From Candidatus Latescibacterota bacterium (GTDB taxonomy: Bacteria; Latescibacterota; UBA2968; UBA8231), in assembly GCA_965242865.1 (NCBI GenBank), contig CBDETK010000013.1, positions 288,001 to 352,000 on the forward strand: a DNA stretch of 64,000 nt, written 5' to 3'. The first letter of the stretch is position 1. Each line of letters begins with the position of its first letter. The notes beneath the pieces are model-generated. The model saw nothing but the letters and a program-made list of their open reading frames with translations. It searched no databases and was not told the origin of the DNA. This document shows, in pieces, positions 7,191 through 26,806 of this stretch. The position numbers and the translations under genes were made by a program.

Positions 7191-7326
7191 CGGGGGCGGT
7201 TTGGGCATCGATGAAGCGGTCGCGGCGATAGTCGCGGAAGTCGGTGGTAGTGATGCGTTTCATGGTAGGCTCCTGAGTGAGTGGGCTATGTGGGGAATGT
7301 AGGGGGTGATAAGGGGTGGGGCAAAC
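7191..7326. repeat. Direct repeat copy 2 (truncated 5' end of the transglutaminase-like gene)
   Basis: Diverged copy of 6200-6330. Confidence 0.85.
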
Positions 7327-7397
7327 AAGACCTTGCGCGGGTCAAGATAAGGCAGCCCTTTCTGTCGGGTAGCCTGCCGAATGAGCCAGTACACTTA

Positions 7398-7675: not shown

Positions 7676-7711
7676 CGCCATTATAGGCAAGGATGACAAG
7701 GAGGCTATGCT

Positions 7712-7999: not shown

Positions 8000-8001
8000 G
8001 C

Positions 8002-15167: not shown

Positions 15168-17342
15168 ATGAGATTGAACAGGAAAATAACTGCACAATTA
15201 TTGAACAGGAAAATAACTGTACAATTCTGGAGGGCTAAAGGACTTAGCGTTCGTGCATCTAATTGTCTGGCAATGGCAAATATTACAGACGAACAAGAAC
15301 TAATCGAGAAAGTTACAACTCTTGATTACCTACTTGCTCTCAGAAATTGTGGCAAACAAACAGCCGAAGAGGTTTGGACATTCCTCACGCACTTAAAACC
15401 TATCTCCAACCACCATCAAAGAGTAGAAACTACATCGTCCAATTCGGGCGATGATCGTTCTACTGAAGCACAATCAGTTTTTGTTCCACTTTTGGACATA
15501 GAGGTATCCATACATATATGGGAAGTCCTCCAAAATACTCCAGTCGATAGTATCCGATGGAGCGTTCGGACACGAAACGTAATCGGCCGTCAGAAGTTAC
15601 AGGAACTAGCTGAGATTGCCGAACTTTCCCCTGGAGAGTGGCTCGATTTTAGAAATTTCGGAGATACCTCTTTGACAGAAATCCAAGGACGCATGGCAGA
15701 AATAATTGAGCAACTTAGGGCTAACCCCAGTGGTATTGAGCCGAGCGACGAGCATTCTGTCGAGACGCAATCTGTCTTTATACCCATTCTAAACACAGAA
15801 ATATCTGCCCACACATGGGAAGCAATTCAAAACATGTCTATTCATCAATTCAACTGGAGTGTTCGGACACAAAATGTTCTCCGTCGGCAGGGCTTCAAAA
15901 CGATTGCCGAGATTGCCGAATTTTCCCCTAGAGAGTGGCTCAATTTTAGAAATTTTGGACGCAAATCTCTGACTGAGATTCAGGAAACAGTTAATAAGAT
16001 CGTTGCGAATACTGACCTGACGTGCCTTGATTCGATGAATGAGCATTCTGCTGAGGAGCTATCTGAAAACTCTGGTGGTCGTCCCTTGTGTCCAAACGAT
16101 CCCGGCTGGATTCCCGCTTTCGCGGAAATGACGACGAGCGGCTCTACGGCTTGCCCAACACGCCCCAAGGTGGGTTTTCAGACAGACTCTGAAGTATCGC
16201 AGATTCAAACACTCGCCAATCTTGGCGACGTAGTTTTTCAATCCCTTCAAACTCGCCAACAGAAGATTATTGCGTCCTATTACGGTTACAAGGAAGTACC
16301 TAAAAAATTACATCAAATTGGTGAAATGCTCGGAGTTACCCGTGAGCGAGTCAGGCAGATTAAGGTAAGGGTCAACAAGAAAATCAATCAAGGCGCGGAC
16401 AACCATCTAATCAAAACCACAATCTTCTATCTATTGAGCCAGTCCATCTACGATGTTCTCGCGAAGGCTGGTGGCTGGTGTTCTGTCAAAGACCTCCGGG
16501 AAAGTATTCATCAGCGGCTGGGGTGGGAAGATAGCGATCAGTGGATTATCGCTTGGTTTGACGAAGCATTCGGCGAGGCGTGGGTATGCTTAGGGACAGA
16601 CGATTACAAAATTATTGATGGCACCTGTTGTCTTAGAGCAGAAGAACGCATTCAAGATGTTTTTACAAAATTTGTGGCGAGACTTCAACGTTATGGCTAT
16701 CGGCCTTTAGCATTGGAAGAATGCCAATACCTCATTCAAAAAAAAGACGAAACTGCTTTCGATCCAGATTATTTGCTTAATAAAATTGTAAGCCATCCCG
16801 CTTTGAAAGTTCATCAGTATAGAAAAACACTCATAGGGCTAAAGGAGTGGACCTGGTTCAGTCCTGAAAAACCAACGACTGCCGCAGGACTAGTCTCACT
16901 CATCGAATGGTTCCTCCGAATGACCAATGAACCTACCACGGCAAAAGCAATCGCCAATGGGATAGGAAGCGAACTCGGCAATTTTAGGTTGACGTCTTTT
17001 GATGTTGCCGACATCTGCGAAAAACAGCCTTATCTTTTTTTTGTTAATGACAATGGGACCTATGGCTTAAACCTTTGGGAGAGAGCCTCAAAATACCGGC
17101 AAGCCCTCACACGGTTACTGTCAGATGAACCGTTACCTATTGAGCGGATTGCCGAGCTATTGTCCCCCCAAGACCCAGAGGAGACTAGGCTTATTGTCGC
17201 AGCATTGAACTTTTATACAGATTCGTTTGTGGAAGCGGTGCCTTTTGAGTGGGCATTAAAGTTGCAGGTGGACAAAATTGAGGCGAAAACAGATTTTGAC
17301 TATACTAATCTCACTTTTGAAGACTTAATGCCTAAATTATGA
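15168..17342 (+). CDS. Protein with three RNA polymerase alpha-CTD-like repeats, a sigma70 region-4-like HTH and C-terminal HTH-like regions; first gene of the island
   Basis: LSVRASNCL..LRNCGKQT, WSVRTRNV..FRNFGDTSLTEI, WSVRTQNV..FRNFGRKSLTEI, then KLHQIGEMLGVTRERVRQI; start uncertain (ATG 15168 or nearby TTG). Confidence 0.8.
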   Translation: MRLNRKITAQLLNRKITVQFWRAKGLSVRASNCLAMANITDEQELIEKVTTLDYLLALRNCGKQTAEEVWTFLTHLKPISNHHQRVETTSSNSGDDRSTEAQSVFVPLLDIEVSIHIWEVLQNTPVDSIRWSVRTRNVIGRQKLQELAEIAELSPGEWLDFRNFGDTSLTEIQGRMAEIIEQLRANPSGIEPSDEHSVETQSVFIPILNTEISAHTWEAIQNMSIHQFNWSVRTQNVLRRQGFKTIAEIAEFSPREWLNFRNFGRKSLTEIQETVNKIVANTDLTCLDSMNEHSAEELSENSGGRPLCPNDPGWIPAFAEMTTSGSTACPTRPKVGFQTDSEVSQIQTLANLGDVVFQSLQTRQQKIIASYYGYKEVPKKLHQIGEMLGVTRERVRQIKVRVNKKINQGADNHLIKTTIFYLLSQSIYDVLAKAGGWCSVKDLRESIHQRLGWEDSDQWIIAWFDEAFGEAWVCLGTDDYKIIDGTCCLRAEERIQDVFTKFVARLQRYGYRPLALEECQYLIQKKDETAFDPDYLLNKIVSHPALKVHQYRKTLIGLKEWTWFSPEKPTTAAGLVSLIEWFLRMTNEPTTAKAIANGIGSELGNFRLTSFDVADICEKQPYLFFVNDNGTYGLNLWERASKYRQALTRLLSDEPLPIERIAELLSPQDPEETRLIVAALNFYTDSFVEAVPFEWALKLQVDKIEAKTDFDYTNLTFEDLMPKL
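15173..15226 (+). repeat. 27-bp tandem duplication at the 5' end of the island
   Basis: ATTGAACAGGAAAATAACTGCACAATT followed by ATTGAACAGGAAAATAACTGTACAATT (1 mismatch). Confidence 0.9.
16055..16189. mobile_element. 135-bp MITE-like element inserted in frame, with a 3-bp TGA target-site duplication
   Basis: Imperfect TIRs GGAGCTATCTGAAAAC / GTTTTCAGACAGACTC, TGA on both flanks (16052-54, 16190-92), internal GGATTCCCGCTTTCGCGGAAATGACG palindrome; 138 bp equals 46 codons. Confidence 0.75.
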
Positions 17343-18982
17343 GAGATTCGCACCGAATGATTTTGCCACAACATCAACAACCAGTAACCGTTCGACTTGC
17401 GCGGGAAGAAGATATTGAAGGCGCGAAACGAATTGCGGATCAACACCGATCTGAATTGGGGTTTGTCAACATCGCCATTTTGCGGGTAGCACAAAGCAAA
17501 GAATGGCTTCTTGTTGCGGCCGAATGGGAAAATCAGAGAAAGTGTGATGTAGTTGTTGGATTTGCAAATTTCCGGATCAAACGGGATAAAAACGCAACGC
17601 TATACGAAATTGCAGTAGCTGATTCACACAGACGTACAAGAGTCGGGACCCGTTTGCTGAGCGAATTAATTCGACGTGTTCACCTAGCTGGCGGGCAATA
17701 TGTTCGTCTCAAGTGCCCACAAGATCTAAATGCCAATAAATTTTACCAAAAATTCGGATTTCGGCATGGCGAAACAGAGCAACGCAAGAAGAGACAGCTC
17801 CAAGTGTGGTACTACCATATTCCCTTAATGCACGGCTCAGGCGCGGAAACATCCTTAGTTACTCCTTTTATTCGCATAGCTGATGAACAGGCTTTGCCGC
17901 AACCTTTCACACCGGAGAACGAACTTCACGCATCCGCACATTTTTACGCTTCCCTGACAGTCAAACCGGATGAAATGAGGACATTGCATCGCCTCTGGCA
18001 TACACATGCACACGACTTTGACTGGAAGTTCGGCAAACCGAATCCATTTCAACGGGTGCTCATCTCTCCTGTCGTTGCCAGCAGGTACATCTTCGATTTT
18101 GTCCGAGAACTGAAACGGACAGGTGAAACGGAAGTGGTCATGTTCGATTCTGGTGGCTATTTCGTCCAGAAAGGAGATATCTCTTATTACGATCTTCATC
18201 GGAAACTCTATGAATACTATCAGCAGGAGGATTGGGCGGATATATATGTTCTGCCAGATAATCCACCACTCAGTAGAGACTCGCTACGTTCTGCGGAAGC
18301 GAAGATAAAACAAACTGTTGAGGGCAGCCTGCGACTTTACGGCGACCTTTCTTACGAAGTTCAGCAGAAAGCGATGCCTGTCGTTCACGCAACGAGAAGT
18401 GAACATCTCGACTATTGCCTGAGACAATACGCTGATTTTAAGAATATCGGTTTCGGCTCATTTCCAACAAGCGGAACTTCAAATTCTATCAACCGATTGA
18501 ACATCAACGCGCTAATGATTCTCCGGCAACTGACTCGGATGCTGGATTCTGAGGGTGTAAAACTACATACCTTTGGTATTTCAACACCACCCGCGATTTA
18601 CCTACTATCACTGGCTGGTGTACATTCTTTTGATTCTAATGGTTGGATGCGGTCTGGTGGATATGGTAAGATATTCCTCCCATTTATGCGGGGCTATCTA
18701 GTCACTTTCAACTCTCGGAGGAATAGGAGTTTGAATGAAACAGAATTCAAATTGTGGAAGGAAAATATAAAGCATGATTGTCCGTTCTGCGGTTCTTTCG
18801 AGCAGCTTTCAAATAACCGATGGGATCGAATTATGCACAATCTGATAGTTATGTCAGAATTAGAAACACATCAGAGGACACCCCGAACAGATATGTTACG
18901 AGAGCTATCAGGAACGTACTATCGTATGTCACAAAGTCTGATAGGTGAAAACTTGTGGCCTGTTAATAATCACGACCTTTAA
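17339..18982 (+). CDS. GNAT acetyltransferase fused to a tRNA-guanine transglycosylase-like (TGT/DpdA-like) domain
   Basis: N-terminal GNAT: LYEIAVADSHRRTRVGTRLL, ANKFYQKFGF. C-terminal TGT fold: MFDSGGY, LPDNPP, MPVVHA, LHTFG, SFDSNGW, HDCPFC...HN Zn site. ATGA overlap with the upstream gene. Confidence 0.8.
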   Translation: MRDSHRMILPQHQQPVTVRLAREEDIEGAKRIADQHRSELGFVNIAILRVAQSKEWLLVAAEWENQRKCDVVVGFANFRIKRDKNATLYEIAVADSHRRTRVGTRLLSELIRRVHLAGGQYVRLKCPQDLNANKFYQKFGFRHGETEQRKKRQLQVWYYHIPLMHGSGAETSLVTPFIRIADEQALPQPFTPENELHASAHFYASLTVKPDEMRTLHRLWHTHAHDFDWKFGKPNPFQRVLISPVVASRYIFDFVRELKRTGETEVVMFDSGGYFVQKGDISYYDLHRKLYEYYQQEDWADIYVLPDNPPLSRDSLRSAEAKIKQTVEGSLRLYGDLSYEVQQKAMPVVHATRSEHLDYCLRQYADFKNIGFGSFPTSGTSNSINRLNINALMILRQLTRMLDSEGVKLHTFGISTPPAIYLLSLAGVHSFDSNGWMRSGGYGKIFLPFMRGYLVTFNSRRNRSLNETEFKLWKENIKHDCPFCGSFEQLSNNRWDRIMHNLIVMSELETHQRTPRTDMLRELSGTYYRMSQSLIGENLWPVNNHDL

Positions 18983-18992: not shown

Positions 18993-19805
18993 ATGGCACG
19001 CTCACACATCTTAAAAGGATTTTCGGACTTGGAGTCGGCATTATGGGTCCACAAATATCACCCTGGGCTTGATACAATTCGGCAAATGGTCAAAACCGCT
19101 TCGGAAAATGGATACACAGTAACGGATACAGCGCGTTACGAAGCGGTTCAGCTATTAAGCGAGTGGGGACTAGCGGATGGAAAAAGCAAGTCATTAACTC
19201 CCGAAGGCGAGACTTTCTATTCCTTGTGGGAAACGAAGCGAAGTACCGCAATTGATTTTCTTCACGCACGGCAATACGGTCTATGGACTCAAAATGCCCC
19301 TGACCAAAACATTGCGTCGTGGGCGTACAAAAATATCTGTGACTACCTATGGACACGGCAAACGCTTCCGGGAGATCGGGATCTGGTGGCTTACATACAT
19401 GATCTCCGAGCCTCTGACGAAGTGGTGATTCCACCGGATATCGGCAATGCGTTCTCCAATAAATCGATCAATGACGCTTATGATTGGCTTCTGCCGTTAG
19501 ACCCGCCCGTATTAGAAAAGGATAGCGCGACATTTGCACAACGGCCATTCTGTTCAACACCACTTTTTGCGATGGGGCTCGGTTATCTCGTGCGAGAATC
19601 CGATACGGCATTTGGGGATTTGGTCAAAATTGACGAAGCGCGAAAACAGGCCGTTTGTCGCTTCTGTCTCATTGACGAAACCGGTTTCGATCTCATGCTC
19701 GACGAGGCATTGCGCCAAGTTCCGTACCTTTCGGTGCAGCGGAGTTGGGACGGGATTTACGTAGAGTTGAATCGAGAACCGCAGATCGGGGATTTTCTCG
19801 ATTAA
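18993..19805 (+). CDS. Hypothetical winged-helix protein, DUF4007/BrxA-like
   Basis: 270 aa with GGAGG RBS; WGLAD...LTPEG helix-wing pattern and a C-terminal FCLIDETGFDLMLDEAL...YLSVQRSWDGIYVEL wHTH-like segment; position in the operon. Family call is tentative. Confidence 0.5.
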   Translation: MARSHILKGFSDLESALWVHKYHPGLDTIRQMVKTASENGYTVTDTARYEAVQLLSEWGLADGKSKSLTPEGETFYSLWETKRSTAIDFLHARQYGLWTQNAPDQNIASWAYKNICDYLWTRQTLPGDRDLVAYIHDLRASDEVVIPPDIGNAFSNKSINDAYDWLLPLDPPVLEKDSATFAQRPFCSTPLFAMGLGYLVRESDTAFGDLVKIDEARKQAVCRFCLIDETGFDLMLDEALRQVPYLSVQRSWDGIYVELNREPQIGDFLD

Positions 19806-19807
19806 AA

Positions 19808-20359
19808 ATGAGCGGATTAAACTCAATGCGCTGGCAATCTTACCACAGGAAACTCCTCAAACTGGCGGAAATTGGCGAAACTTTGACGTCCTCTCAGCAG
19901 GTAGTTGGTCGGTTTCTGCGGCGGGAGATCAGAGACCATCAGCAACGCATCGATCTCTGGGGTGCTCCGGGCGTTGGCAAGACGTTTCTCGCGCACCATC
20001 TCCATCACTGTGCAGACGGTCTCTATTTCTCGTCTGTAGAAACTTGTTCATATACCGAAGTTTCCCCAAATTCGGTGGTTATCATCGACAACGCACCGCA
20101 TGACCGAAGTTCAGCGCGGTCAATTTTCGGGGATGTGCTTTGGGCAGGCGCGTCGTCGGTCGTTTTGGTGACGCGCCAACCCATTGACGATGCGGTTCGG
20201 AGCGTTGAATTGGGCTTAACAATTCAGGAATTGGCACAAGTTGAGGATGTGATGCGTAGGCTTTTCGGCCATTTCCCGCCCGATGACCTGCGCGATGTTG
20301 ACCTCCTCCGCTGTGGAATTTGGCAACGGCTTAACACTCTCGCGGAGCGAAAATTATAA
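19808..20359 (+). CDS. Small P-loop ATPase (BrxF/BrxB-position component)
   Basis: Walker A WGAPGVGKT, Walker B-like VVIIDN; 183 aa. Confidence 0.65.
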   Translation: MSGLNSMRWQSYHRKLLKLAEIGETLTSSQQVVGRFLRREIRDHQQRIDLWGAPGVGKTFLAHHLHHCADGLYFSSVETCSYTEVSPNSVVIIDNAPHDRSSARSIFGDVLWAGASSVVLVTRQPIDDAVRSVELGLTIQELAQVEDVMRRLFGHFPPDDLRDVDLLRCGIWQRLNTLAERKL

Positions 20360-20373: not shown

Positions 20374-23300
20374 ATGGCTTTAGAAGAAATCATCCAAAAA
20401 AGTGTGGTGGTCGATACGCCACGCGCAGAAGATCTCGCGGCGAGGCCAGCGGAATGGGCTGATCGCTTTCAATTTCACGTCTCGACGCATGTCGCGATAG
20501 CCGATATGACCGATAAGTGGGATGCGATTCTCAAAAACCTCCTACGCGGCCGTTCTGCAACAGGACTCATCCACGCCGATACGGGTTACGGCAAAACCTC
20601 GACCGCAGCCGCGCTTTGGCATTATGTAGAACAACGCGAGATTGTCGCGGTTCCGCCATTTGTGTGGAATAGCATCGCCGACATGCTCATTGCAACTCAC
20701 GGGTGGGTCTGCCACCGCTTGAAGGCGAAGAGGCCGGATCTGATTCCCGATTTAGAGCAACAGTATCAAACGCTGATTGCGAGTAGTGATGAAGATCGGG
20801 CGAGCAAAATAAGCCAAGAGCAAGGTGTTCCGCTCGATTATGCCAGAAAGTCCGTCCAGTCCCTTAAAGCGCGGGGCGATCTGATGGACGCGGTTTCCGC
20901 AAATCGCCTCATTGATTACTTGCGAATGGCGACTTCGACGCTTTTGGAGGCGGAGTATAAAGGGTTGCTCATTCTGCCAGATGAGTTCAAGCTTTTTGAC
21001 AATACGAATTCAGACATCGCCAAGAATTTCGCGGAACTCAAAGACTTTATCTTTCCCATTTTCCAAGAAAACAGCCTCCCAATAGGCTGTGTGGTTTTGA
21101 CCTATCGCCGAACATTTTCCGACATCCAACTCAGAGAACCTTACATATTTGCCCGATTCAACAAGCCTGAAGGGAGTTTGATCGACCTCGAGCAGGCATA
21201 CAGAAAGATCGAAAATGAAAAGTCTTTCGCCGATGAACTTTGGGAGAAATTGTCCATTGGGTGTAACCTGACCGACGCGGAGAAAGAGGCTATCGATCCG
21301 GATGTGCTGTTTGCCCTCGGGCAGTTTTTGGGACATCAGCGCACGACGCAACTGATTAGTGGCCCCCGGTCTGTTGTCGCGACGTTCCGCCGTGCGGCTA
21401 ACCACTACGGCCAAAAGAAGCGACCCTATTCCATTTTCGATTTTTGTGCAGACTATATCTCTCAAGGGCTTATTTGCTTCAACAATCAGGAAATCGACAC
21501 GGTCAAAGCGCATACCTCAATCATGAGTCAGCCCATCATTGGCACTGATGAGGCAAAGCAGCGCGTCGTCAAACTACTGTGCGTTTGCCCCGATGGCGTA
21601 CCAGAGGAACTGTTCAAAAAGCACGGCATTTCCGCTGAAGATCGCTTGGCGGTCGTGCAAGGGTTGTTGGGTACACACATCATTAGGAAAATCATCGGAC
21701 CGACTTTAACCCATTACAAGGATGATTTACAAGCAGGCGACGCTCTCATCGAGATTCTTAAAATTCTGCGGAATCAGTACAATCCCGCCAGTGAAGAAAC
21801 TCATCGCGCCGCTGTCAGATCATTTGCGAATTACATTCTGCCCGAAATTTTTCAACAACTCACCGGAGCCGCCCACACGGGTTGGGGAGGTTTGACAAAG
21901 ATGGAAGGGGATATAGAACCGATCTTTCAGGGCAGGCTCCAAGGGACTTCTCTCCGAGACTATCCAGACCGAACATTGACCGTCCACGTTGGCACCGAGA
22001 AATTTCAAGAAATTAGCGGTGCCTACCGCGAGAGCCAGTTGTTTACATCTTTTATTTTGCGGACTCAAGGGAGTACACCGATCTCGAATACCTGTAATGT
22101 TCGCGCAGACGGTCTCTACTTCCGCCTCAACATCTCCGAGGCTATCGACAACCGAGAAATTCCAAAAGAGATTGGCAAACTCGGCGACCTTTTTTTGCCG
22201 GAGTCCGTTACCCCTTCGCTGCTCCTATCCATGCTCGACTTCTTTGACCAAGAATCGACAACCGCCCAAATCAAGGAGCTAAAACAGGAAGCGCAGGTGC
22301 GACTCTTGAAATCCCAAATTCATACCCAACTGATCGGTTACTTCTTTTCCGCTGAGGTCAAGGCGAGTGCCGTATCACAGCAAGCAGATTTGGCACGAGT
22401 ACCCGCGGGGAAAAGTTTTGTCGAACGGGCTTTGGGCGTACTGATAAGGGAAAAATTCAAATCATATCGCGCTGTTGCAATCTCGCATCAATGGGAAAAG
22501 AATTTGGGGACGTACATGCTGGCAGCAAAAAATGCCGAAAGTCTCGGCGTAAAACGGGGTGAGAATCCCATTAAAATGAGTGCCAGAGACGTGCCAAGGC
22601 TGTTTAGTATCGGTCAACACACCACTTTTGCCAATACATTCTACCCAAACGGCGTCTTGCGCGATCTCTTGCTCGTCAATGAAATTGACGCCAATGGCAA
22701 AACCATAGCGGAAGGGATTGAGGTTAAAAACAACCAGAGTTCCGTCGCGGTCTATTTTAAGCTCCATGACGTGGAAAAGCGCGTTTTGGAAATGCTCGAG
22801 GCAAGCGCAGAAAGCATTGTCGTTGATGGCAGGCCCGCCAAAGCAATGCCGATCCCCGAGGTTTTCCAACGGGAAGGAAAATTTGGGTATCTCGATGATG
22901 AAATCGAAGCGTTAATCAAAGTGTTGAAGGCAAGGGGCTTGGTCGATCAAAGACAGCAACGGGGGATGGATTATCTGTATTGCGTTGAGACAGAGATCAA
23001 CTTGACCGAATTGCAACGCAAGTTCGACCGACTTGAGGCACTTGAGGAACTGGCACAATCAAAAGGCTTCGCACTGGAAAGTGACGGTGATAACTCGCTG
23101 GCATCGGTGCAGGCAGATTTTCAGATCATCGGAATTGCGTCTAATGAAGTCCGCAAGGATTCACTTCGGCAAAAACTCAATTCGATTGAGGACGCTTTCA
23201 AAACGCAGTGTACGGTGTGGCTAACGAAGGTCCGCGACCAACTCAATCGAAAAACCGCAGAGGTCGAAACATTGGAGTTGGATCTACCGAGGGTGCTGGA

Positions 23301-24459
23301 GCGAGAAACCGACCACCCGACGACCGAGTTTTCAGTTCTGCTGTTTCAGGATATCCGTAATGAAATTCGGAAGGTGTATAACGCCATTCCCCGAGAAAGA
23401 GACAAAGTAAAACAGCAAGTGCGGGCAATCCTCGATAAGAAGATTCAAGAATACCAATCTGACCAAACCTTTGAAAAAGCGATTGCAGTGGCGGCAGATT
23501 TTCGCGGTTCCATGCAGACGGTTGACAAGGAGATCGAAGCACTCCGCGAGAAGCGTTCAGAAGCTGAACTGCTTTATGAGTTATTTGAAAAATGGCGCAA
23601 CCTCGCTAGACAAGTTGAGCGTAATCGACTGACGATGACAGATGCCCAAGAGATTGATGAGGTAAAAATTCTCTGTGATAAGCTGGACGAGGAACAGCAG
23701 CGGATTAAACGCTATCTTGCGGATCGGGCGAAAACTGTCAAGCAGGTTCTGGAAAACCACGAGTACTTTTTCAATCAAATTGCCGCGATCAAGGACGAAT
23801 TTGACCAGATCTCCGAACGCCGAAAAGATGACTTTATCCGGTTTCAAGCCGATATTGAAGGCCAACTCCGTCAACTCATTGACAGACCCGGCATTGGCGA
23901 ACAATTCAACCCTAACGATGTAGAAGGATCGTACAGCCGAATCCGCGAAAAAGCGGTTGAGAAGATTCAGGAACTTGTCATCAAATTTGCAATTCAGCGT
24001 ATTACAGAACTGAAAAGCGAATTGATGAAACCGCTTGAGGTTTTTACCGTCAGTGACCGGATCAAAAATCAGGCAAAGGAAATGAGCGACGCGATATATG
24101 CTTTGGAGGAGAGAATCAATGAGGTGAGCGTTGATCTGAAACCCGATGACGTTGATGCCCTGTTGCCTGCATGGGTGGAATCACTCAAGTCTATTCGTGA
24201 AGAGGGAAATGAGGTTTTCACAAAATGGGAAGGCATTCAAGATCAACTCAGATGTGACAAAAGTGAGTTGGGTCCAAAGGAAGTAGTGCTGCTGGATATG
24301 ATTGAAGCTAATGCGGATAAGGATTTTACAGAATTGATTATCGATCTCAGGCAGTCTGAAAATGAAGTGTTCGGTTCGACTTCAGAGATCATTAAGAGTC
24401 TTGAAGAGTTATACCAACGCAATTGGTTGAACATCAAAATCTCACGAACTATAGGATAG
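20374..24459 (+). CDS. Large P-loop ATPase with long coiled-coil C-terminus (BrxC-like)
   Basis: Walker A HADTGYGKTS, Walker B LLILPDEFK, FARF, GPRSVV; heptad-rich C-terminal half; terminal wHTH-like SLEELYQRNWLNIKI; AAGGA RBS. Confidence 0.75.
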   Translation: MALEEIIQKSVVVDTPRAEDLAARPAEWADRFQFHVSTHVAIADMTDKWDAILKNLLRGRSATGLIHADTGYGKTSTAAALWHYVEQREIVAVPPFVWNSIADMLIATHGWVCHRLKAKRPDLIPDLEQQYQTLIASSDEDRASKISQEQGVPLDYARKSVQSLKARGDLMDAVSANRLIDYLRMATSTLLEAEYKGLLILPDEFKLFDNTNSDIAKNFAELKDFIFPIFQENSLPIGCVVLTYRRTFSDIQLREPYIFARFNKPEGSLIDLEQAYRKIENEKSFADELWEKLSIGCNLTDAEKEAIDPDVLFALGQFLGHQRTTQLISGPRSVVATFRRAANHYGQKKRPYSIFDFCADYISQGLICFNNQEIDTVKAHTSIMSQPIIGTDEAKQRVVKLLCVCPDGVPEELFKKHGISAEDRLAVVQGLLGTHIIRKIIGPTLTHYKDDLQAGDALIEILKILRNQYNPASEETHRAAVRSFANYILPEIFQQLTGAAHTGWGGLTKMEGDIEPIFQGRLQGTSLRDYPDRTLTVHVGTEKFQEISGAYRESQLFTSFILRTQGSTPISNTCNVRADGLYFRLNISEAIDNREIPKEIGKLGDLFLPESVTPSLLLSMLDFFDQESTTAQIKELKQEAQVRLLKSQIHTQLIGYFFSAEVKASAVSQQADLARVPAGKSFVERALGVLIREKFKSYRAVAISHQWEKNLGTYMLAAKNAESLGVKRGENPIKMSARDVPRLFSIGQHTTFANTFYPNGVLRDLLLVNEIDANGKTIAEGIEVKNNQSSVAVYFKLHDVEKRVLEMLEASAESIVVDGRPAKAMPIPEVFQREGKFGYLDDEIEALIKVLKARGLVDQRQQRGMDYLYCVETEINLTELQRKFDRLEALEELAQSKGFALESDGDNSLASVQADFQIIGIASNEVRKDSLRQKLNSIEDAFKTQCTVWLTKVRDQLNRKTAEVETLELDLPRVLERETDHPTTEFSVLLFQDIRNEIRKVYNAIPRERDKVKQQVRAILDKKIQEYQSDQTFEKAIAVAADFRGSMQTVDKEIEALREKRSEAELLYELFEKWRNLARQVERNRLTMTDAQEIDEVKILCDKLDEEQQRIKRYLADRAKTVKQVLENHEYFFNQIAAIKDEFDQISERRKDDFIRFQADIEGQLRQLIDRPGIGEQFNPNDVEGSYSRIREKAVEKIQELVIKFAIQRITELKSELMKPLEVFTVSDRIKNQAKEMSDAIYALEERINEVSVDLKPDDVDALLPAWVESLKSIREEGNEVFTKWEGIQDQLRCDKSELGPKEVVLLDMIEANADKDFTELIIDLRQSENEVFGSTSEIIKSLEELYQRNWLNIKISRTIG

Positions 24460-24464
24460 CGATT

Positions 24465-25592
24465 GTGCTAGACCTTTTAGAGAAATTTCCCTGTATAACC
24501 GACCTGCCAGAAACGACGCTAGGACTGTGGGAAATATGCCTGTCTGATATTTGGTGTCCCAATTCGCTGGCAGAATGGCGAGGTGTTGTTGATGCACCAC
24601 AGGAAGTTCCCACAAAGGCGACGCTTTTTGTGAATTTTTCAGAGGCTGAAAGTAAAGAATTGACAGACATTTTCGGTTTCCCTACGATTGACCTTCCGGC
24701 GGTTCCCCCAATTGAATGGGTGAATCAGAAATTGCCCGACCGTTTTAGTGCCTTGTGTACAGATGAATCGAAACTCTTAAAACAATCGCAACTCGCCCAA
24801 ACCGTTACAGACCGCGTATCATACATGCTTCCCGACATTGTTGTTTTTATGGTACTCGATGGGCTATCATCGTATGATGTCGCAGACTGGATATTCCCAG
24901 AGGCTTGGCGCGTAGTGTATGAGCCGTGTCTTGTTGATGGACTAAGTGTCACAACGAACGGCATGCGTCGATTGATCGGATCACCACCCTTAACGCATCG
25001 TTTGTTTGAGTTAGGGTACGTACAGCGACTTGGCTTTTCATATTGGGAACGCTCTCGAAATCAACTTACCAATGTACTCTTTTCTGAATTTCCACCGAGC
25101 CAACTGTTTCGCTTCACAACCTTTGAAGAGGTTTTAGATACATTGCAGAATACGGACTTACCTAACCGAACGTTCATTCAAATCGTCCGCACAGGACTCG
25201 ATGGAGTCTGCCATAGCCATAGAGAAAAGCCGAATATAGATATGATGCTTAACCAGCTTAAATTGGATATTGAACAGATTTTTGAAACAGTTGGCTCATC
25301 TCAGAAAGTCGTGCGGGTTTTTGTAACTAGCGACCATGGAATTCTTTGGTTCACAGATCAAAAGATGAAGACATTTAAGTCGGGCAGTACTTCTGCCCGT
25401 TACACTTATGCGAACCCCTCATCTGACGTGTCTGGAATCACTATTGCTGAATCTGGGAAGACGTTTACAGTCTTAACAGGCGATGAAGTCATCGCCAGAA
25501 ACCGAAAGGTGACGGAATGGGGATTTCACGGCGGAATTTCTGCACAAGAGTCTTTCATTCCGTTACTCGACATTACCCTAAATAGTAGGTGA
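24465..25592 (+). CDS. PglZ-like alkaline-phosphatase-superfamily protein
   Basis: VVFMVLDGLS, LDGVCH, FVTSDHG, FHGGISAQESFIPLL match PglZ core motifs; start uncertain (GTG 24465 or TTG 24423). Confidence 0.75.
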   Translation: MLDLLEKFPCITDLPETTLGLWEICLSDIWCPNSLAEWRGVVDAPQEVPTKATLFVNFSEAESKELTDIFGFPTIDLPAVPPIEWVNQKLPDRFSALCTDESKLLKQSQLAQTVTDRVSYMLPDIVVFMVLDGLSSYDVADWIFPEAWRVVYEPCLVDGLSVTTNGMRRLIGSPPLTHRLFELGYVQRLGFSYWERSRNQLTNVLFSEFPPSQLFRFTTFEEVLDTLQNTDLPNRTFIQIVRTGLDGVCHSHREKPNIDMMLNQLKLDIEQIFETVGSSQKVVRVFVTSDHGILWFTDQKMKTFKSGSTSARYTYANPSSDVSGITIAESGKTFTVLTGDEVIARNRKVTEWGFHGGISAQESFIPLLDITLNSR

Positions 25593-25597
25593 TCCAA

Positions 25598-26806
25598 ATG
25601 GCCGAGATCAACTTGCGAATTGGCACTGAATACGAAAACAGCGAATTAATTTATATGAACGCAACAGGATCACGCGCCGTATTCATTTGTGGCAAGCGTG
25701 GTTCTGGCAAAAGCTATACGATGGGCGTCATTGTCGAAGAACTGTTCAACCAAGAACAAGGTGAGGCAACAATTATCATTGCCGATCCGATGGGGATTTA
25801 CCACACGATGGCTCTGCCGAATCAAACTCAAGCAGATGAAGTTCGTCATGCCGGATTCCTTACCAGCGGCTTTCCAGTTCGGCTCATTGTCCCTGGCGAT
25901 CCCTTGGTTCGATACGGAGATGCTGTGGTGCTGGCGAAACTGCGAGAGAACGGCGTCGAGGTTGTTCCACTCCAAATTAACGCCGCAGACCTCTCTCCCG
26001 AGGCTTGGTGCGAGCTGTTTGACATTAGCATGAACGAAGTGATGGGGATTATTTTGTGGCGAGCAGTTGATACTCTTCTTGAAAAAGACCAGCATTTTAC
26101 TATTGATGACATCCTTGCGGCAATCGAGAGCGATCCAAGAGCGAAAGATACCTCTAAAGAAGCTTTAGAAAACCGTTTAACGGCGGCGAATAGGTGGGGT
26201 ATTTTCTCAAGAGAACCCACCTCATTGAATGACGTGTTTCTCTTGAACCAGATCAATGTTTTAGACCTAAGTGTGATTGATGCTGGTACAAAAGGGCTAC
26301 GTAACATGGTTCTCGATGTTGTCGCCCATCGTCTTTTTTCTGAACGAACACGAGAAAGACGTAGAGAAGAATTTGGTTTGTCAACGAAACTACCACGGGT
26401 TTGGCTGGCGATTGACGAAGCCCATCAATTTGTGCCGAAAGGACGAGCCTCGCTCTGCAAGGAAATGCTCATCCGTTGGGTGAAGGAGGGGCGTCAACCC
26501 GGTCTCAGCCTCGTCGTAGCGACGCAACAGCCGGCCGCGATTGATCCTGAACTATTATCGCAGTGCGACGTCATTGTCGCGCACAAAATTACAACTTGGG
26601 ACGACATCAATGCACTTGATCGACTGAGTGCAACGTATATGGAGGGAAACTTAAAAGGCTACATTCGCAACTTGAATCGCAGGGGTGAGGCTCTATTGGT
26701 TGATGATGAAACCGAGTCTGTTACGACAATTCGGGTCCGCCCGCGATTCAGTTCGCATGGAGGGGCCGAAATTCAAGAGAAGACTGTGCGGAAATCTTTA
26801 TTTTAG
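25598..26806 (+). CDS. HerA/FtsK-like (DUF87) ATPase
   Basis: [63 protein letters not shown]; ATG 25598 (GTG 25589 is an alternative). Confidence 0.85.

What the first reader, a model, noticed from the sequence alone, without database searches (positions are those of the whole stretch)
17339..18982. GNAT-transglycosylase fusion suggests an acylated deazaguanine base
Seen: a complete GNAT domain (acetyl-CoA-binding-like HRRTRVG and ANKFYQKFGF) joined by a linker to a TGT barrel that keeps DSGG, the second catalytic Asp (SFDS), HxFG and a Zn site (HDCPFC...HN). Established: TGT/DpdA enzymes exchange guanine for preQ0/preQ1, and preQ1 has a free primary amine. Inference: the GNAT could N-acetylate the inserted base, giving a new DNA modification, or it could acetylate a protein partner as a switch. 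No folE/queD/queE/queC genes lie in this window, so precursor would have to come from the host or from salvage.
Basis: partly seen in the sequence, partly recalled or inferred. Interest (0 to 1): 0.82.

Follow-up and report, generated by a model that had tools for sequence, protein, structure and literature searches.

The report
GNAT–transglycosylase fusion in BREX-like island
This gene fuses an acetyltransferase to a divergent guanine-swapping enzyme inside a BREX-like anti-phage island of a kind first described by computer analysis in 2026, and it probably marks the cell's own DNA with a modified base whose chemistry nobody has yet measured.

Summary
ORF 17339-18982 (+, 547 aa) is a GNAT domain, a disordered linker and a TGT-fold barrel. 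All three active-site Asp and a His-Cys-Cys-His zinc site are invariant in 55 of 55 relatives.

It is neither the housekeeping Tgt nor a bona fide DpdA; the genome encodes both elsewhere. It is the first enzyme of a low-GC, seven-gene island: sigma/alpha-CTD protein, GNAT-TGT, SspB/DUF4007-like protein, small P-loop NTPase, 1361-aa BrxC-like ATPase, PglZ-like protein and HerA. This architecture matches the "BREX-Related Capture" (BRC) system predicted in NAR 2026, so the kind is already in print, though only in silico.

New here:
- GNAT is present at all 74 of 74 assessable loci, whether fused, adjacent or at the operon's end. One reverse-order fusion exists.
- Two viral genomes carry only the GNAT + TGT-like pair.
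- The GNAT-TGT/SspB-like/ATPase triad also occurs with other downstream modules.
- No locus co-encodes a preQ0 pathway, and 11 of 50 carrier genomes lack QueC and QueF.

Best reading: a DNA guanine-exchange self-marking module whose GNAT acts on the inserted base. An acetylated 7-deazaguanine is plausible (formyl- and methyl-preQ1 are known in phage DNA) but untested.

The parts
15168..17342 (+). Upstream operon gene: three RNA-polymerase alpha-CTD-like repeats, a sigma-70 region 4 and a C-terminal domain of unknown function. The start is uncertain: ATG 15168 or ATG 15273, and the frame is open from 14322. Its stop overlaps the start of the fusion gene by 4 nt.
   Evidence: Pfam RNA_pol_A_CTD E 1.5e-35 (3 stretches) and Sigma70_r4 E 1.5e-10. 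NCBIfam BREX_PglW E 9.3e-9 and MzaA E 1.7e-6, both far below their cut-offs. Candidate starts were listed. tblastn homologues lie upstream of the fusion in the close relatives.
17339..18982 (+). The GNAT-linker-TGT-like fusion gene (547 aa), the subject of the finding.
17366..17818 (+). GNAT (acyl-CoA N-acyltransferase) domain, about aa 10-160.
   Evidence: Pfam PF00583/PF13508/PF13673/PF08445. Ard1-like fold, TM on target 0.86. R19, A21, D25, K30, G41, F42, A60, G74, T87, Y89, G103, L124, C126, N133, F135, Y136 and W157 are identical in 38 of 38 GNAT-bearing relatives.
17837..17917 (+). Disordered linker, aa 167-193.
   Evidence: pLDDT below 50 over 167-193. No conserved columns in this stretch.
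17924..18952 (+). TGT-fold (beta/alpha)8 barrel with a C-terminal zinc subdomain, about aa 196-538. D270 (nt 18146-18148) aligns with the general acid/base Asp, D307 (18257-18259) with the base-recognition Asp, and D432 (18632-18634) with the nucleophile Asp. H479/C481/C484/H500 (18773-18838) align with the CxCxxC...H zinc site.
   Evidence: Invariance in 55 of 55 sequences. hhalign against a 6-sequence DpdA alignment: probability 98.2%, E 2.8e-14. hhalign against a 6-sequence Tgt alignment: probability 93.7%, E 2e-7. The motifs pair as stated. Roles of the DpdA residues Asp95/Asp130/Asp256 and the CXCX2CX22H zinc site come from passages of PMC10164549.
18945..19805 (+). 286-aa SspB/DUF4007/BrxA-like DNA-binding protein. 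The likely true start is ATG 18993, since residues 1-16 are unconserved and have low pLDDT.
   Evidence: No Pfam, NCBIfam, PADLOC or PHROG hit. AF2 model pLDDT 89.9. Best Foldseek match is SspB 6juf (probability 1.00, E 0.024, TM on query 0.57-0.59), and no match reaches E <= 0.001. PMC12839542 equates DUF4007 with SspB. A homologue lies directly downstream of the TGT-like gene in 63 of 80 loci by tblastn.
19745..20359 (+). Small P-loop NTPase (204 aa as listed; likely start ATG 19808). Candidate counterpart of the BRC 'STAND NTPase / BrxB homologue'.
   Evidence: Only weak P-loop hits: AAA_25 E 0.0099, nSTAND3 E 0.062. The Walker A motif GAPGVGKT is visible. Syntenic homologues appear.
20374..24459 (+). 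1361-aa P-loop ATPase, BrxC/DUF6079-like by position and weak signals.
   Evidence: AAA_16 E 0.0013. The Atlas first hit scores 0.97 to a cluster in which 20% of members carry BrxC_BrxD; DUF6079 clusters score 0.87, which is a lead only. The Pfam DUF6079 model does not hit it, and BLASTP against the genome's true DUF6079 protein finds nothing. A homologue is present in 61 of the 62 loci with enough downstream DNA.
24423..25592 (+). 389-aa PglZ/alkaline-phosphatase-like protein.
   Evidence: PADLOC PglZ E 1.3e-5. NCBIfam BREX_PglZ_2 E 6.7e-7, 27.9 bits against a cut-off of 200. Pfam PglZ only E 0.067. The short motifs TSDHG and HGGI...E...PL are shared with the genome's true PglZ.
25589..26806 (+). 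405-aa HerA/FtsK-type ATPase, the last gene of the island.
   Evidence: Pfam DUF87 (HerA central domain) E 3.7e-19. PADLOC HerA E 1.8e-23 and mad8 E 3.6e-22. It is the most conserved island protein, at 50-98% identity across loci.

Best explanation
The fusion is the DNA-modification enzyme of a BREX-related, HerA-containing defence island (BRC type).

Proposed mechanism:
1. The TGT-like barrel flips out a guanine in double-stranded DNA.
2. It removes the guanine by the TGT/DpdA double-displacement mechanism: D270 as general acid/base, D432 as nucleophile forming a covalent enzyme-deoxyribose intermediate, D307 reading the Watson-Crick edge.
3. It installs a guanine-like replacement base, most likely a 7-deazaguanine taken from the host queuosine pool.
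4. The obligatory GNAT partner uses an acyl-CoA to acylate an amine of that base, before or after insertion. The simplest candidate is the aminomethyl group of preQ1.
5. The SspB-like DNA-binding protein and the P-loop ATPases provide site selection and ATP-driven access, taking the role DpdB plays for DpdA.
6. The PglZ-like protein and HerA act on unmarked foreign DNA.

What is shown: domain identity, conservation of all catalytic and zinc residues, obligate GNAT association, and conserved operon context.

What is inferred: DNA as the target, self-marking as the purpose, the identity of the base, and the GNAT substrate.

My odds: active base-exchange enzyme about 0.85; DNA target about 0.7; self-mark of this defence system about 0.55; GNAT acting on the base about 0.3; specifically N-acetyl-preQ1 about 0.2.
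For: (1) Catalytic integrity. The three Asp and the zinc ligands are invariant in 55 of 55 sequences. By hhalign they align to the catalytic Asp, the base-recognition Asp, the nucleophile Asp and CxCxxC...H of Tgt and DpdA. In DpdA, mutation to alanine abolished guanine-exchange activity, and all three active-site aspartates are described as invariant in both enzyme families (PMC10164549 passages).

(2) Not a tRNA housekeeping enzyme.
- The genome has a separate Tgt (548.5 bits) and a separate DpdA (NF041059, 346 bits).
- The fusion reaches none of the Tgt, TgtA or DpdA cut-offs.
- It lies in its own clade, SH-aLRT 99.

(3) Obligate coupling to GNAT, across 80 loci.
- 56 have GNAT and TGT-like in one open frame.
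- 10 have them adjacent.
- 8 have a homologous GNAT gene 8.6-10.6 kb downstream, after HerA.
- The other 6 contigs end 1.4-6.9 kb after the TGT start.
- A reverse-order fusion also exists (P0173: TGT-like then C-terminal GNAT).
- GNAT residues are strongly conserved.

(4) Context.
- The order GNAT-TGT, SspB-like, P-loop, large ATPase, PglZ-like, HerA is conserved from 95% down to about 33% identity.
- The island has GC 0.40-0.51 against 0.61-0.66 in the flanks.
- No methyltransferase is present in the island, whereas a second BREX-related locus in the same genome (P-loop, DUF6079, N6-methylase, AAA_15, PglZ) has one.

(5) Two viral genomes carry only the pair.
- Thermocrinis Great Boiling Spring virus has a GNAT (36% identity, E 6e-22) overlapping a TGT-like gene (35%, E 6e-52). 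They sit beside the sliding clamp, helicase, nuclease and PolA genes.
- A 73.7-kb IMG/VR contig with terminal repeats has a TGT-like gene followed by a GNAT gene and no island partners.

(6) Precedent. N-formyl and N-methyl dPreQ1 occur in phage DNA, made by the predicted DpdN and the validated DpdM (abstract of PMC10516641).

(7) Supply. The host genome has queC x2, queD, queF and folE.

(8) PMC12839542 independently proposed GNAT/TGT as the modification arm of this system.
Against: - No modified nucleoside has been measured for any member, so everything about the target and the base is inference.
- Pfam TGT is below its cut-off. Sequence matches to solved TGT and DpdA structures are weak: 1iq8 E 0.019, 7ui4 E 0.07.
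- No preQ0 pathway gene is co-encoded. QueD, QueF and FolE are found in 0 of 80 loci, and QueC in 1 of 80, 9 kb away.
- 11 of 50 carrier genomes have no convincing QueC and 0 of those 11 have QueF. All 11 do have Tgt and 6 of 11 have a Vut_1/YhhQ-family transporter, so these genomes would depend on salvage. They are MAGs of unknown completeness.
- Both viral records lack QueC, QueD and QueF.
- The GNAT's nearest named relatives are protein N-terminal acetyltransferases (RimI E 3.2e-8; Ard1), which fits a protein substrate equally well.
- The viral TGBSV gene ends at the residue aligned to aa 449 and so lacks the zinc subdomain.
- Pfam DUF6079 and DUF4007 do not recognise the island's proteins, so equivalence with the published BRC components rests on fold, position and weak signals.
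Confidence: 0.45

Rival explanations
1. The TGT-like domain inserts plain preQ0 or preQ1 into DNA, as PMC12839542 suggests ('perhaps restricted to dPreQ0 alone'). The GNAT does not touch the base. Instead it acetylates a protein, for example the N-terminus or a lysine of a system component or of a phage protein, as a switch or sensor.
For: The GNAT's best named matches are RimI (E 3.2e-8) and Ard1 (Foldseek TM on target 0.86; PDB profile hit 4pv6 E 1.9e-7). These are protein N-alpha-acetyltransferases. The paper's own reading is in section 36. The archaeal-type and DpdA relatives, to which this domain is closest, use preQ0, which has no acylatable side-chain amine; that substrate preference is recalled knowledge.
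Against: A purely regulatory acetyltransferase would not be expected to stay with the TGT-like gene in 74 of 74 assessable loci, in both fusion orders, and in two viral genomes that lack every other system component. GNAT folds are too similar for nearest-neighbour names to fix a substrate.
Confidence: 0.17
2. The replacement base is not a 7-deazaguanine. The GNAT makes or finishes an acylated guanine-like base from common metabolites. The two enzymes alone would then be a self-sufficient DNA-modification cassette, independent of the queuosine pathway.
For: No que genes lie in 79 of 80 loci. Eleven of 50 carrier genomes lack QueC and QueF. Both viral genomes, one rated 100% complete, lack QueC, QueD and QueF. 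GNAT association is obligate.
Against: Every characterised TGT-family enzyme handles 7-deazaguanines (passages read). All 11 QueC-less genomes keep Tgt and so must obtain such bases by salvage. No candidate free base with an acylatable amine other than preQ1 is evident. MAG incompleteness could explain some of the absences.
Confidence: 0.12
3. The pair is an effector or sensor rather than a self-marker. It would act as a base-excision enzyme that removes guanine or a modified guanine from invader DNA, leaving abasic sites or covalent adducts that PglZ and HerA then process.
For: The TGT mechanism passes through a covalent enzyme-sugar intermediate after base removal. Base-excision restriction enzymes exist (PMC10273834; title and abstract seen only in the listing).
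Against: Viruses carrying only the pair within a replication module fit protection of their own DNA better than attack. The island has no other candidate self/non-self marker, so an effector role would leave the system without one.
Confidence: 0.08
4. The TGT-like domain acts on a protein (as Cap10 does in type IV CBASS deazaguanylation) or on tRNA, not on DNA.
For: TGT-family enzymes have been repurposed for nucleobase-protein conjugation in defence (10.1101/2025.04.06.647259, passages). The GNAT half resembles N-terminal acetyltransferases, and Cap10's substrate is a protein N-terminus.
Against: Per the passages read, Cap10 lacks the zinc site and has remodelled nucleic-acid surfaces, and it works with the QueC-like Cap9. 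Here the zinc site is invariant. No QueC-like or CD-NTase gene is in the island. The neighbours are DNA-binding or DNA-translocating proteins. A tRNA role would duplicate the genome's own Tgt.
Confidence: 0.08

Closest known systems
BREX-Related Capture (BRC) system, predicted in PMC12839542 (NAR 2026; bioRxiv Oct 2025)
   Same: The component list matches: PglZ-like, large BrxC-type ATPase, small NTPase, SspB/DUF4007/BrxA-like DNA binder, HerA/FtsK, GNAT and TGT. The paper already notes that GNAT is 'occasionally fused with TGT' and proposes that the pair marks host DNA (section 36).
   Different: - Pfam's DUF6079 and DUF4007 models do not hit this island's proteins.
- The island has an extra sigma/alpha-CTD gene.
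- The paper reports 45 taxa with HerA universal and GNAT/TGT in a subset. Starting from the TGT side, I find 151 genomic loci. Fusion is the majority form, 56 of the 80 loci kept. Of the 62 loci with enough downstream DNA, 29 have no HerA hit and carry other downstream modules instead.
- I could not see the paper's supplementary tables, so I cannot say whether this lineage is among its 45 taxa.
Bacterial Dpd system: DpdA with DpdB and DpdC (PMC10164549)
   Same: A TGT-fold enzyme in a restriction-modification-like island. It has three invariant active-site Asp and a structural zinc site, and it depends on partner ATPases. It is the closest profile match (hhalign probability 98.2%, E 2.8e-14).
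   Different: - No NF041059 hit at E <= 0.1, and a separate clade in the tree.
- The zinc motif is HxCxxC-x15-H rather than CXCX2CX22H.
- No ParB-like DpdB or DUF328 DpdC is in the island.
- GNAT is the obligate partner instead.
- Bona fide DpdA is over its cut-off in only 6 of 50 carrier genomes.
Phage DpdA with preQ1-tailoring enzymes DpdN (formyltransferase) and DpdM (methyltransferase) (PMC10516641, abstract)
   Same: A transglycosylase is paired with an enzyme that derivatises the preQ1 side-chain amine, giving N-acylated or N-alkylated 7-deazaguanine in DNA. Viral copies of the present pair exist.
   Different: - The tailoring enzyme here is a GNAT and is physically fused.
- No acetylated derivative is reported: five spellings found no paper, and one search listed none that describes one.
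- The two viral carriers encode no QueC, QueD or QueF.
Cap10, the TGT-like protein of type IV CBASS (10.1101/2025.04.06.647259)
   Same: A TGT-fold protein recruited into an anti-phage system.
   Different: Cap10 lacks the zinc site, has remodelled nucleic-acid-binding surfaces, binds a CD-NTase and works with the QueC-like Cap9. The present domain keeps the zinc site and catalytic Asp, and the island has no such partners.
Type-4 BREX and Ssp phosphorothioation modules (SspB = DUF4007, SspC = BrxC-type ATPase; PMC12839542 section 34)
   Same: A BREX-like chassis in which the methyltransferase is replaced by another DNA-modification chemistry. That chemistry works with an SspB-like DNA binder and a BrxC-like ATPase. 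The 286-aa neighbour's best fold match is SspB.
   Different: The chemistry here is base exchange plus acyl transfer, not sulfur insertion. There is no PAPS reductase or cysteine desulfurase in the island.

Membership tests
TGT superfamily (Tgt/TgtA/DpdA fold) | (beta/alpha)8 TIM-barrel TGT fold | tested here: met
   AF2 model pLDDT 88.9. Foldseek to Z. mobilis TGT: E 2.7e-9, probability 1.00, TM on target 0.55. PHROG 887 E 1.3e-11. Pfam PF01702 reaches only 20.3 bits against a cut-off of 26.3.
TGT superfamily (Tgt/TgtA/DpdA fold) | Three active-site aspartates: general acid/base, base recognition and nucleophile | tested here: met
   D270, D307 and D432 are invariant in 55 of 55 sequences. 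hhalign aligns them to the DSGG, FDEC and FDC aspartates of Tgt and to the matching DpdA aspartates. Residue roles are from PMC10164549.
TGT superfamily (Tgt/TgtA/DpdA fold) | Structural zinc site CxCxxC...H | tested here: met
   H479-x-C481-x-x-C484-x15-H500 is invariant and aligns to CxCxxC...H of Tgt. The first ligand is His instead of Cys. Metal binding itself was not tested.
Bacterial housekeeping Tgt (TIGR00430) | Score over the equivalog cut-off (306.75 bits) and being the genome's only Tgt | tested here: not met
   TIGR00430 is not among the 14 families listed at E <= 0.1. The genome has a separate Tgt at 548.5 bits to PF01702. The Tgt clade is separate in the tree, SH-aLRT 100.
bDpdA (NF041059) / Dpd system | Score over the equivalog cut-off (200 bits) | tested here: not met
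   No NF041059 hit at E <= 0.1, whereas the genome's true DpdA scores 346 bits. The DpdA clade is separate, SH-aLRT 99.
bDpdA (NF041059) / Dpd system | Partner genes dpdB (ParB-like ATPase) and dpdC (DUF328) | tested here: not met
   No ParB-like or DUF328 hit in any of the seven island proteins.
GNAT superfamily | GNAT fold with acyl-CoA-binding motif A and the motif B Tyr | tested here: met
   Four Pfam GNAT families are over their cut-offs. Ard1-like fold. R98...G103 and N133-x-F135-Y136 are conserved in 34-38 of 38 sequences. The motif definitions are recalled, and cofactor binding was not tested.
BRC system (PMC12839542) | HerA/FtsK translocase, universal in the family | tested here: met
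   DUF87 E 3.7e-19 and PADLOC HerA E 1.8e-23 for 25589-26806.
BRC system (PMC12839542) | GNAT and TGT components | tested here: met
   They are fused here.
BRC system (PMC12839542) | Short PglZ | tested here: inconclusive
   PADLOC PglZ E 1.3e-5 and NCBIfam BREX_PglZ_2 at 27.9 bits against a cut-off of 200. Pfam PglZ E 0.067. The DHG and HGG motifs are shared with a true PglZ. No fold prediction was run.
BRC system (PMC12839542) | DUF4007 / BrxA-like tripartite DNA-binding protein | tested here: inconclusive
   No Pfam hit. The DUF4007 genome search was uninformative because nothing rang in the controls either. The best fold match of the AF2 model is SspB 6juf (probability 1.00, but E 0.024; TM on query 0.57-0.59). 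The paper equates SspB with DUF4007.
BRC system (PMC12839542) | DUF6079 (BrxC-like ORC/Cdc6 AAA+ ATPase) | tested here: inconclusive
   The Pfam DUF6079 model finds a different gene in this genome (1828.7 bits) and not the island's 1361-aa protein. BLASTP between the two gives E 0.96. Atlas leads: BrxC_BrxD in 20% of members of the top cluster (score 0.97), and DUF6079 clusters at 0.87.
BRC system (PMC12839542) | Active STAND NTPase (BrxB homologue) | tested here: inconclusive
   The 204-aa protein has a Walker A motif and only weak P-loop hits (AAA_25 E 0.0099, nSTAND3 E 0.062).
Cap10-type protein deazaguanylation (type IV CBASS) | Loss of the zinc site, and partners Cap9 (QueC-like) and a CD-NTase | tested here: not met
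   The zinc site is invariant. There is no QueC-like gene in the window and no such hits among the island proteins. The features come from passages read.

The most novel reading that the evidence does not exclude
The GNAT + TGT-like pair is a self-contained two-enzyme cassette that replaces guanine in DNA with a previously unseen N-acylated base. That base could be N-acetyl-preQ1 or an acylated base that does not come from the queuosine pathway. Bacteria would use it as the self mark of at least three different restriction chassis: PglZ+HerA, an unknown 576-aa + 460-aa pair, and BrxD-like ATPase + PRTase-CE. Viruses would use it as anti-restriction armour.
Probability: 0.25. Interest if true: 0.85.

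Novelty: new member of a known kind. Interest (0 to 1): 0.55.

Why it matters
BREX-family systems are defined by an epigenetic self mark. So far the known marks are N6-methyladenine and, in type 4, phosphorothioate. If this module does what its anatomy suggests, it adds base exchange plus acylation as a third chemistry. It may also add a new natural DNA base to the eight known 7-deazaguanine derivatives.

The fusion makes the question easy to test. One 547-aa protein carries both activities. Its catalytic residues are identified. Natural split, adjacent, fused and reverse-fused forms exist, as do virus-borne minimal versions.

The census here shows three things the published prediction does not: the family is much wider than the 45 taxa reported, it is not tied to HerA, and it is not co-inherited with a preQ0 pathway. 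That last point bears directly on which base is used.

Tried and rejected
- Housekeeping Tgt: rejected.
- Bona fide DpdA: rejected.
- Sequence-only matches to solved structures were nearly uninformative. The phmmer search found only weak GNATs. The profile of the whole fusion was swamped by GNATs. The profile of the TGT half gave 1iq8 at E 0.019 and 7ui4 at E 0.07, plus a spurious designed protein.
- Pairwise BLASTP of the island's ATPase, P-loop and PglZ-like proteins against the genome's DUF6079 locus found nothing beyond two short PglZ motifs.
- The DUF4007 genome search rang nowhere, controls included, so it says nothing.
- Complex prediction on the TGT-like half with the SspB-like protein gave 'no answer' (score 0.00, mark 0.32). 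I treat this as no evidence either way.
- The look-up of sequencing runs listed no RNA holder: 6 runs from 2 studies, none on record as RNA. Read laying was therefore not used, and nothing is said about expression.
- PHROG scans of 10 ORFs around the pair in the IMG/VR contig named only the acetyltransferase and one family of unknown function. The viral nature of that contig therefore rests on IMG/VR's call and CheckV.
- The TGBSV paper does not discuss the gene pair. The three 'transglycosylase' occurrences refer to the lysin, and 'acetyltransferase' does not occur.
- Two Atlas leads (DpdG-like at 0.87 for the 286-aa protein; DUF6079 at 0.87 for the ATPase) are below the tool's reliability mark and are used only as leads.
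- The tree used the quick method with SH-aLRT only. It has no archaeal TgtA or phage DpdA1-4 reference rows, and the root is arbitrary. It supports 'separate clade', not a branching order.
- The QueC tally needs care. The tool counts 45 of 50 genomes with a match at or over the cut-off. Six of those have only weak matches (best E 2.9e-7 to 1.6e-4). The ones individually listed score 23-31 bits and cover at most the first ~180 of 210 profile positions, within 360-1410-aa frames. I read these as probably other related ATP-dependent enzymes, which gives 39 of 50 with a full-length QueC.
- QueE was not searched.
- Supplementary tables of PMC12839542 were not available. They may already list this lineage, the fusion frequency or the viral homologues.

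Full report
**The gene**

One search lists a single ATG-initiated open frame at 17339..18982 on the + strand, 547 aa.

- Pfam recognises four overlapping GNAT families (best PF00583, E 1.3e-11, aa 58-141). TGT (PF01702) hits only below its cut-off: 20.3 against 26.3 bits, aa 292-485.
- The phage-protein family phrog_887 ('queuine tRNA-ribosyltransferase') matches aa 263-505 at E 1.3e-11.
- PADLOC's TGT model matches at E 9.8e-5.
- An AlphaFold2 model on a 55-sequence alignment is confident: mean pLDDT 88.9, pTM 0.88. Two folded halves are joined by a disordered stretch, residues 167-193.
- Foldseek matches the C-terminal half to Z. mobilis tRNA-guanine transglycosylase (2nqz, E 2.7e-9, TM on target 0.55). 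It matches the N-terminal half to the acetyltransferase Ard1 (4pv6, TM on target 0.86).

**Catalytic integrity**

The alignment covers 55 relatives: the window protein, 37 other GNAT-bearing proteins and 17 stand-alone TGT-like proteins, down to about 32% identity. Invariant residues include F269-D270-S271-G272-G273, D307, G371-F372-G373, H410/F412/G413, D432, and H479/C481/C484/H500-N501.

I ran profile-profile alignments in the script box.
- Against six DpdA sequences: probability 98.2%, E 2.8e-14.
- Against six bacterial Tgt sequences: probability 93.7%, E 2e-7.

These alignments pair the residues as follows.
- D270 pairs with the Asp of the Tgt DSGG motif.
- D307 pairs with the Asp of FDEC.
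- D432 pairs with the Asp of FDC(V).
- H479-x-C481-x-x-C484 ... H500 pairs with the CxCxxC...H zinc site.

In the DpdA structural paper the corresponding residues have defined roles. Asp95 is the general acid/base, Asp130 binds the Watson-Crick edge and Asp256 is the nucleophile. [quoted passage not shown] The Z. mobilis residue numbers I associate with these motifs are recalled, not taken from a call.

The GNAT half is equally constrained. R19, A21, D25, K30, G41, F42, A60, G74, T87, Y89, G103, L124, C126, N133, F135, Y136 and W157 are identical in 38 of 38 GNAT-bearing sequences. Both halves look like working enzymes.

**What it is not**

- The genome (6.0 Mb, 13 contigs, completeness 93.59%, contamination 6.84%) encodes a housekeeping Tgt at 548.5 bits to PF01702.
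- It encodes a bona fide DpdA, scoring 346 bits to NF041059 against a cut-off of 200. This DpdA is fused to an N-terminal DUF6884 domain.
- It encodes a third TGT-like protein next to a BrxD-like ATPase.
- The window's fusion gets no NF041059 or TIGR00430 hit at E <= 0.1, and only 20.1 bits to the archaeal TgtA model, whose cut-off is 350.
- A profile of the TGT half scanned against 1.84 billion representative proteins finds only 609 at E <= 1e-3, 232 at <= 1e-10 and 113 at <= 1e-30. It does not reach the very large canonical Tgt family.
- Some lower-scoring representatives (P0253, P0260, P0265) score 43-114 bits to the TgtA model.

I built a quick maximum-likelihood tree of 59 rows.
- The GNAT-associated TGT-like proteins form one group of 39 rows with SH-aLRT 99. 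The group includes the viral copy.
- Tgt is a separate group (SH-aLRT 100).
- DpdA is a separate group (SH-aLRT 99).
- The TgtA-like representatives together with the genome's third TGT-like protein are nearest (SH-aLRT 94 for their own group).

The tree lacks archaeal TgtA and phage DpdA1-4 rows, and the root is arbitrary.

**The island**

The gene sits in a low-GC stretch. GC is 0.40-0.51 from about 15.0 to 26.8 kb, against 0.61-0.66 in the flanks. The stretch lies between a UbiD-like gene and aconitase. Seven co-directional, mostly overlapping genes fill it.

1. A protein with three alpha-CTD-like repeats and a sigma-70 region 4. It weakly resembles the middle of PglW and MzaA.
2. The fusion.
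3. A 286-aa protein with no family hit.
4. A small P-loop NTPase.
5. A 1361-aa P-loop ATPase.
6. A 389-aa PglZ/alkaline-phosphatase-like protein (PADLOC PglZ E 1.3e-5; the DHG and HGG motifs are shared with a true PglZ).
7. A HerA/FtsK ATPase (DUF87 E 3.7e-19; PADLOC HerA E 1.8e-23).

For the 286-aa protein, an AlphaFold2 model (pLDDT 89.9) has SspB as its best structural match (6juf, probability 1.00, TM on query 0.57-0.59). The E-value is only 0.024, and no match reaches 0.001.

For the 1361-aa protein, the Atlas gives a first hit at 0.97 to a cluster in which 20% of members carry BrxC_BrxD.

The island contains no methyltransferase. The same island lies at the same UbiD/aconitase site in three related genomes, L011, L012 and L014.

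**Prior description**

A full-text search led to PMC12839542 (NAR, January 2026; preprint October 2025). I read its section 36 in full, plus other passages. It predicts a 'BREX-Related Capture' system of seven components.

- PglZ.
- A DUF6079 BrxC-like ATPase.
- A STAND NTPase (BrxB homologue).
- DUF4007 (BrxA-like, equated with SspB).
- HerA/FtsK.
- GNAT.
- TGT.

The paper reports the system in 45 taxa, with HerA universal and GNAT/TGT in a subset, 'occasionally fused'. It proposes that the pair may mark host DNA. It suggests that the base is 'perhaps restricted to dPreQ0 alone' and that the STAND NTPase substitutes for DpdB.

The window's island matches this architecture gene for gene. However, Pfam's DUF6079 and DUF4007 models do not recognise its proteins. 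The genome's true DUF6079 protein lies in a different locus: P-loop, DUF6079, N6-methylase, AAA_15/DUF3696, an unknown protein and PglZ. That locus is a useful internal comparison. The chassis is similar, with a methylase where the present island has GNAT-TGT.

No other paper in the library uses the BRC name. I found none that reports experimental work on this system.

**Census of relatives**

A word-based protein search returned 161 relatives. Of the 120 listed, 87 carry GNAT Pfam domains and cover 81-100% of the query. The other 33 are 319-356 aa and cover only the TGT half.

A scan of one genome per species found 151 loci and kept 80. They come from Latescibacterota, Gemmatimonadota, Poribacteria, Chloroflexota, Cyanobacteria, Armatimonadota, Planctomycetota, Acidobacteriota and others.

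The order fusion, SspB-like, (P-loop), large ATPase, PglZ-like, HerA is kept from 95% down to about 33% identity.

The GNAT-TGT relationship in the 80 loci is as follows.

| Arrangement | Loci |
|---|---|
| One open frame | 56 |
| Adjacent, with a stop or frame change between the halves | 10 |
| Stand-alone TGT-like gene, with a homologous GNAT gene 8.6-10.6 kb downstream after HerA | 8 |
| Stand-alone TGT-like gene on a contig that ends 1.4-6.9 kb after the TGT start | 6 |

In two of the ten adjacent cases (L064 and L074) the stop is at the very edge of the hit. L064 is a single ORF.

GNAT is therefore present in 74 of 74 assessable loci. One representative protein, P0173, is fused in the reverse order: TGT-like followed by a C-terminal GNAT. 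This is classic fusion and gene-neighbourhood evidence that the two enzymes act in one pathway.

The census also shows the module is not tied to HerA. Of the 62 loci with at least 9.5 kb after the TGT start, the counts are as follows.

| Feature detected by tblastn | Loci (of 62) |
|---|---|
| Large ATPase | 61 |
| SspB-like protein | 49 |
| PglZ-like protein | 34 |
| HerA | 33 |

Among the 29 loci without a HerA hit, two other downstream modules recur.
- 13 loci carry a conserved pair of about 576 and 460 aa. The one pair I scanned has no Pfam match (L051).
- 6 cyanobacterial loci carry a 289-aa protein, a BrxD-like ATPase and a PRTase-CE protein.

**Viruses**

A tblastn search of the TGT half against 50,697 phage records found one hit: Thermocrinis Great Boiling Spring virus.
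- A 135-aa acetyltransferase (36% identical to the window's GNAT, E 6e-22, keeping the RLKCP and AN-FY motifs) overlaps a 257-aa TGT-like gene (35% identical, E 6e-52).
- The pair lies next to the sliding clamp, a helicase, a PD-(D/E)XK nuclease and DNA polymerase I genes.
- The viral TGT-like protein stops at the residue aligned to aa 449, so it lacks the zinc subdomain.
- The virus paper does not discuss these genes.

A scan of IMG/VR found a 73.7-kb contig with direct terminal repeats, rated 100% complete.
- A full-length TGT-like gene is followed by a GNAT gene.
- No homologue of the other island genes lies within 8 kb.

The pair alone, in viral genomes, fits protection of the virus's own DNA. 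This is the best indirect evidence that the pair is a self-sufficient nucleic-acid-modifying unit.

**Which base?**

The host genome can make preQ0 and preQ1. It has QueC (twice), QueD/PTPS, QueF and FolE elsewhere. Three observations still keep the identity of the base open.

1. Unlike many dpd clusters, these loci do not carry the pathway. QueD, QueF and FolE homologues are in 0 of 80 loci, QueC is in 1 of 80 (9 kb away), and Tgt is in 1 of 80.
2. Of 50 carrier genomes searched, 39 have a full-length QueC. The tool's own tally is 45 of 50 at the cut-off. Six of those have only weak matches, best E 2.9e-7 to 1.6e-4. The 11 genomes without a full-length QueC are mostly Chloroflexota and Fervidibacter MAGs. 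None of them has QueF (0 of 11). All 11 have Tgt. Six of the 11 have a Vut_1/YhhQ-family transporter. That this family salvages preQ0/preQ1 is recalled knowledge. These genomes would have to rely on salvage, and their completeness is unknown.
3. Both viral records lack QueC, QueD and QueF.

An N-acetyl analogue would therefore be a small chemical step. No paper in the library uses any of five spellings of acetyl-preQ1.

**Protein or tRNA targets**

TGT-fold proteins can also work on proteins. Cap10 of type IV CBASS binds a CD-NTase whose N-terminus carries a deazaguanine. Per the passages read, Cap10 lacks the zinc site, its nucleic-acid surfaces are remodelled, and it needs the QueC-like Cap9.

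The present domain keeps the zinc site and all catalytic Asp, and the island has no such partners. The GNAT's resemblance to N-terminal acetyltransferases (RimI, Ard1) keeps a protein substrate for the GNAT on the table.

**Verdict**

A DNA-directed base-exchange enzyme with an obligate acyltransferase partner, serving as the modification arm of a BREX-related system, is the best reading. I give the whole statement about 0.45 and acetyl-preQ1 specifically about 0.2.
- The kind has been in print since 2025/2026 as a computational prediction, so this locus is a new member of a known kind.

The additions here are:
- the invariant catalytic and zinc residues;
- the obligate GNAT linkage in every gene arrangement;
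- the viral minimal pairs;
- the alternative downstream modules;
- the independence from a co-encoded, and sometimes even a genomic, preQ0 pathway.

The open and readily testable question is the structure of the base.

Noticed in passing
L003:1063-2781 (-) = G000:C13 about 783.9-785.6 kb: The same genome encodes a bona fide DpdA (NF041059, 346 bits). It is fused to an N-terminal DUF6884 domain (E 5.7e-6, below cut-off; a weak YaaA/DUF328-like signal is also present). A UvrD-like helicase gene follows it. Similar 579-642-aa frames hold DpdA in five other carrier genomes; a sixth (G035) has it in a 734-aa frame.
   Followed up: partly
L002:1450-2628 (-) = G000:C13 about 3.035 Mb: A third TGT-like protein of 392 aa (PF01702 80.8 bits; TgtA model 79.8 bits, below cut-off). 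It lies between a BrxD-like ATPase and a large ATPase-like ORF with no family scan. It may be yet another TGT-based defence locus. In the tree it groups with unnamed TgtA-like representatives.
   Followed up: partly
L091 = G000:C13:3914000-3933900: A second BREX-related locus in the genome: small P-loop protein (172 aa), true DUF6079 (1251 aa, 1828.7 bits), N6/N4 DNA methylase (777 aa), AAA_15/DUF3696 ATPase (639 aa), an unknown 349-aa protein and PglZ (694 aa). It parallels the island studied here but has a methylase in place of GNAT-TGT.
   Followed up: partly
L038, L039, L040, L044, L050, L051, L054, L056, L063, L066, L070, L089, L090, downstream of the large ATPase: In 13 loci, the GNAT-TGT / SspB-like / large-ATPase triad is followed by a conserved pair of about 576 and 460 aa instead of PglZ-like + HerA. 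L051's copies were scanned and have no Pfam match. In L090 the pair is on the opposite strand. This may be an unknown effector module.
   Followed up: partly
L078, L079, L080, L081, L082, L084 (cyanobacteria), downstream of the large ATPase: In six loci the triad is followed by a 289-aa protein, a 424-aa BrxD-like ATPase and a 371-aa PRTase-CE protein (PF24390, E 7.6e-23 in L078). This is a third chassis for the same modification module.
   Followed up: partly
P0173 (481 aa, from the representatives search): A reverse-order fusion. The TGT-like domain spans aa 26-324 and the GNAT domain aa 365-478. A weak hit to Pfam PF23859 'DpdA' (E 5.7e-4) is also present. No genomic context could be fetched.
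   Followed up: no
window 15168-17342 (+): A protein with three tandem RNA-polymerase alpha-subunit C-terminal-domain-like repeats, then a sigma-70 region 4 and a roughly 300-aa unknown C-terminal domain. It appears translationally coupled to the fusion gene (a 4-nt overlap). Its architecture recalls the BrxA-like DNA-binding triad reported inside PglW. Its role (sensor or regulator) is unknown.
   Followed up: partly
window 52001-54000, also 6001-8000 and 48001-52000: Other stretches of lowered GC (0.487, 0.551 and 0.56-0.58, against about 0.63 elsewhere) in the 2-kb composition profile. They may be further acquired segments and were not examined.
   Followed up: no
L106:4357-5130 (Thermocrinis Great Boiling Spring virus, BK013347.1): The viral TGT-like gene ends at the position aligned to aa 449 of the window protein. 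It lacks the zinc-binding C-terminal subdomain that is invariant in the cellular family. The cause could be a genuinely minimal enzyme, an assembly error or a frameshift; this was not resolved.
   Followed up: partly
L013:2560-3681 and L089:229-888: These are the only queuosine-pathway neighbours found among the 80 loci. One is a housekeeping-type Tgt 6 kb upstream on the opposite strand (L013). The other is a QueC 9 kb upstream (L089). Both are probably chance proximity.
   Followed up: no
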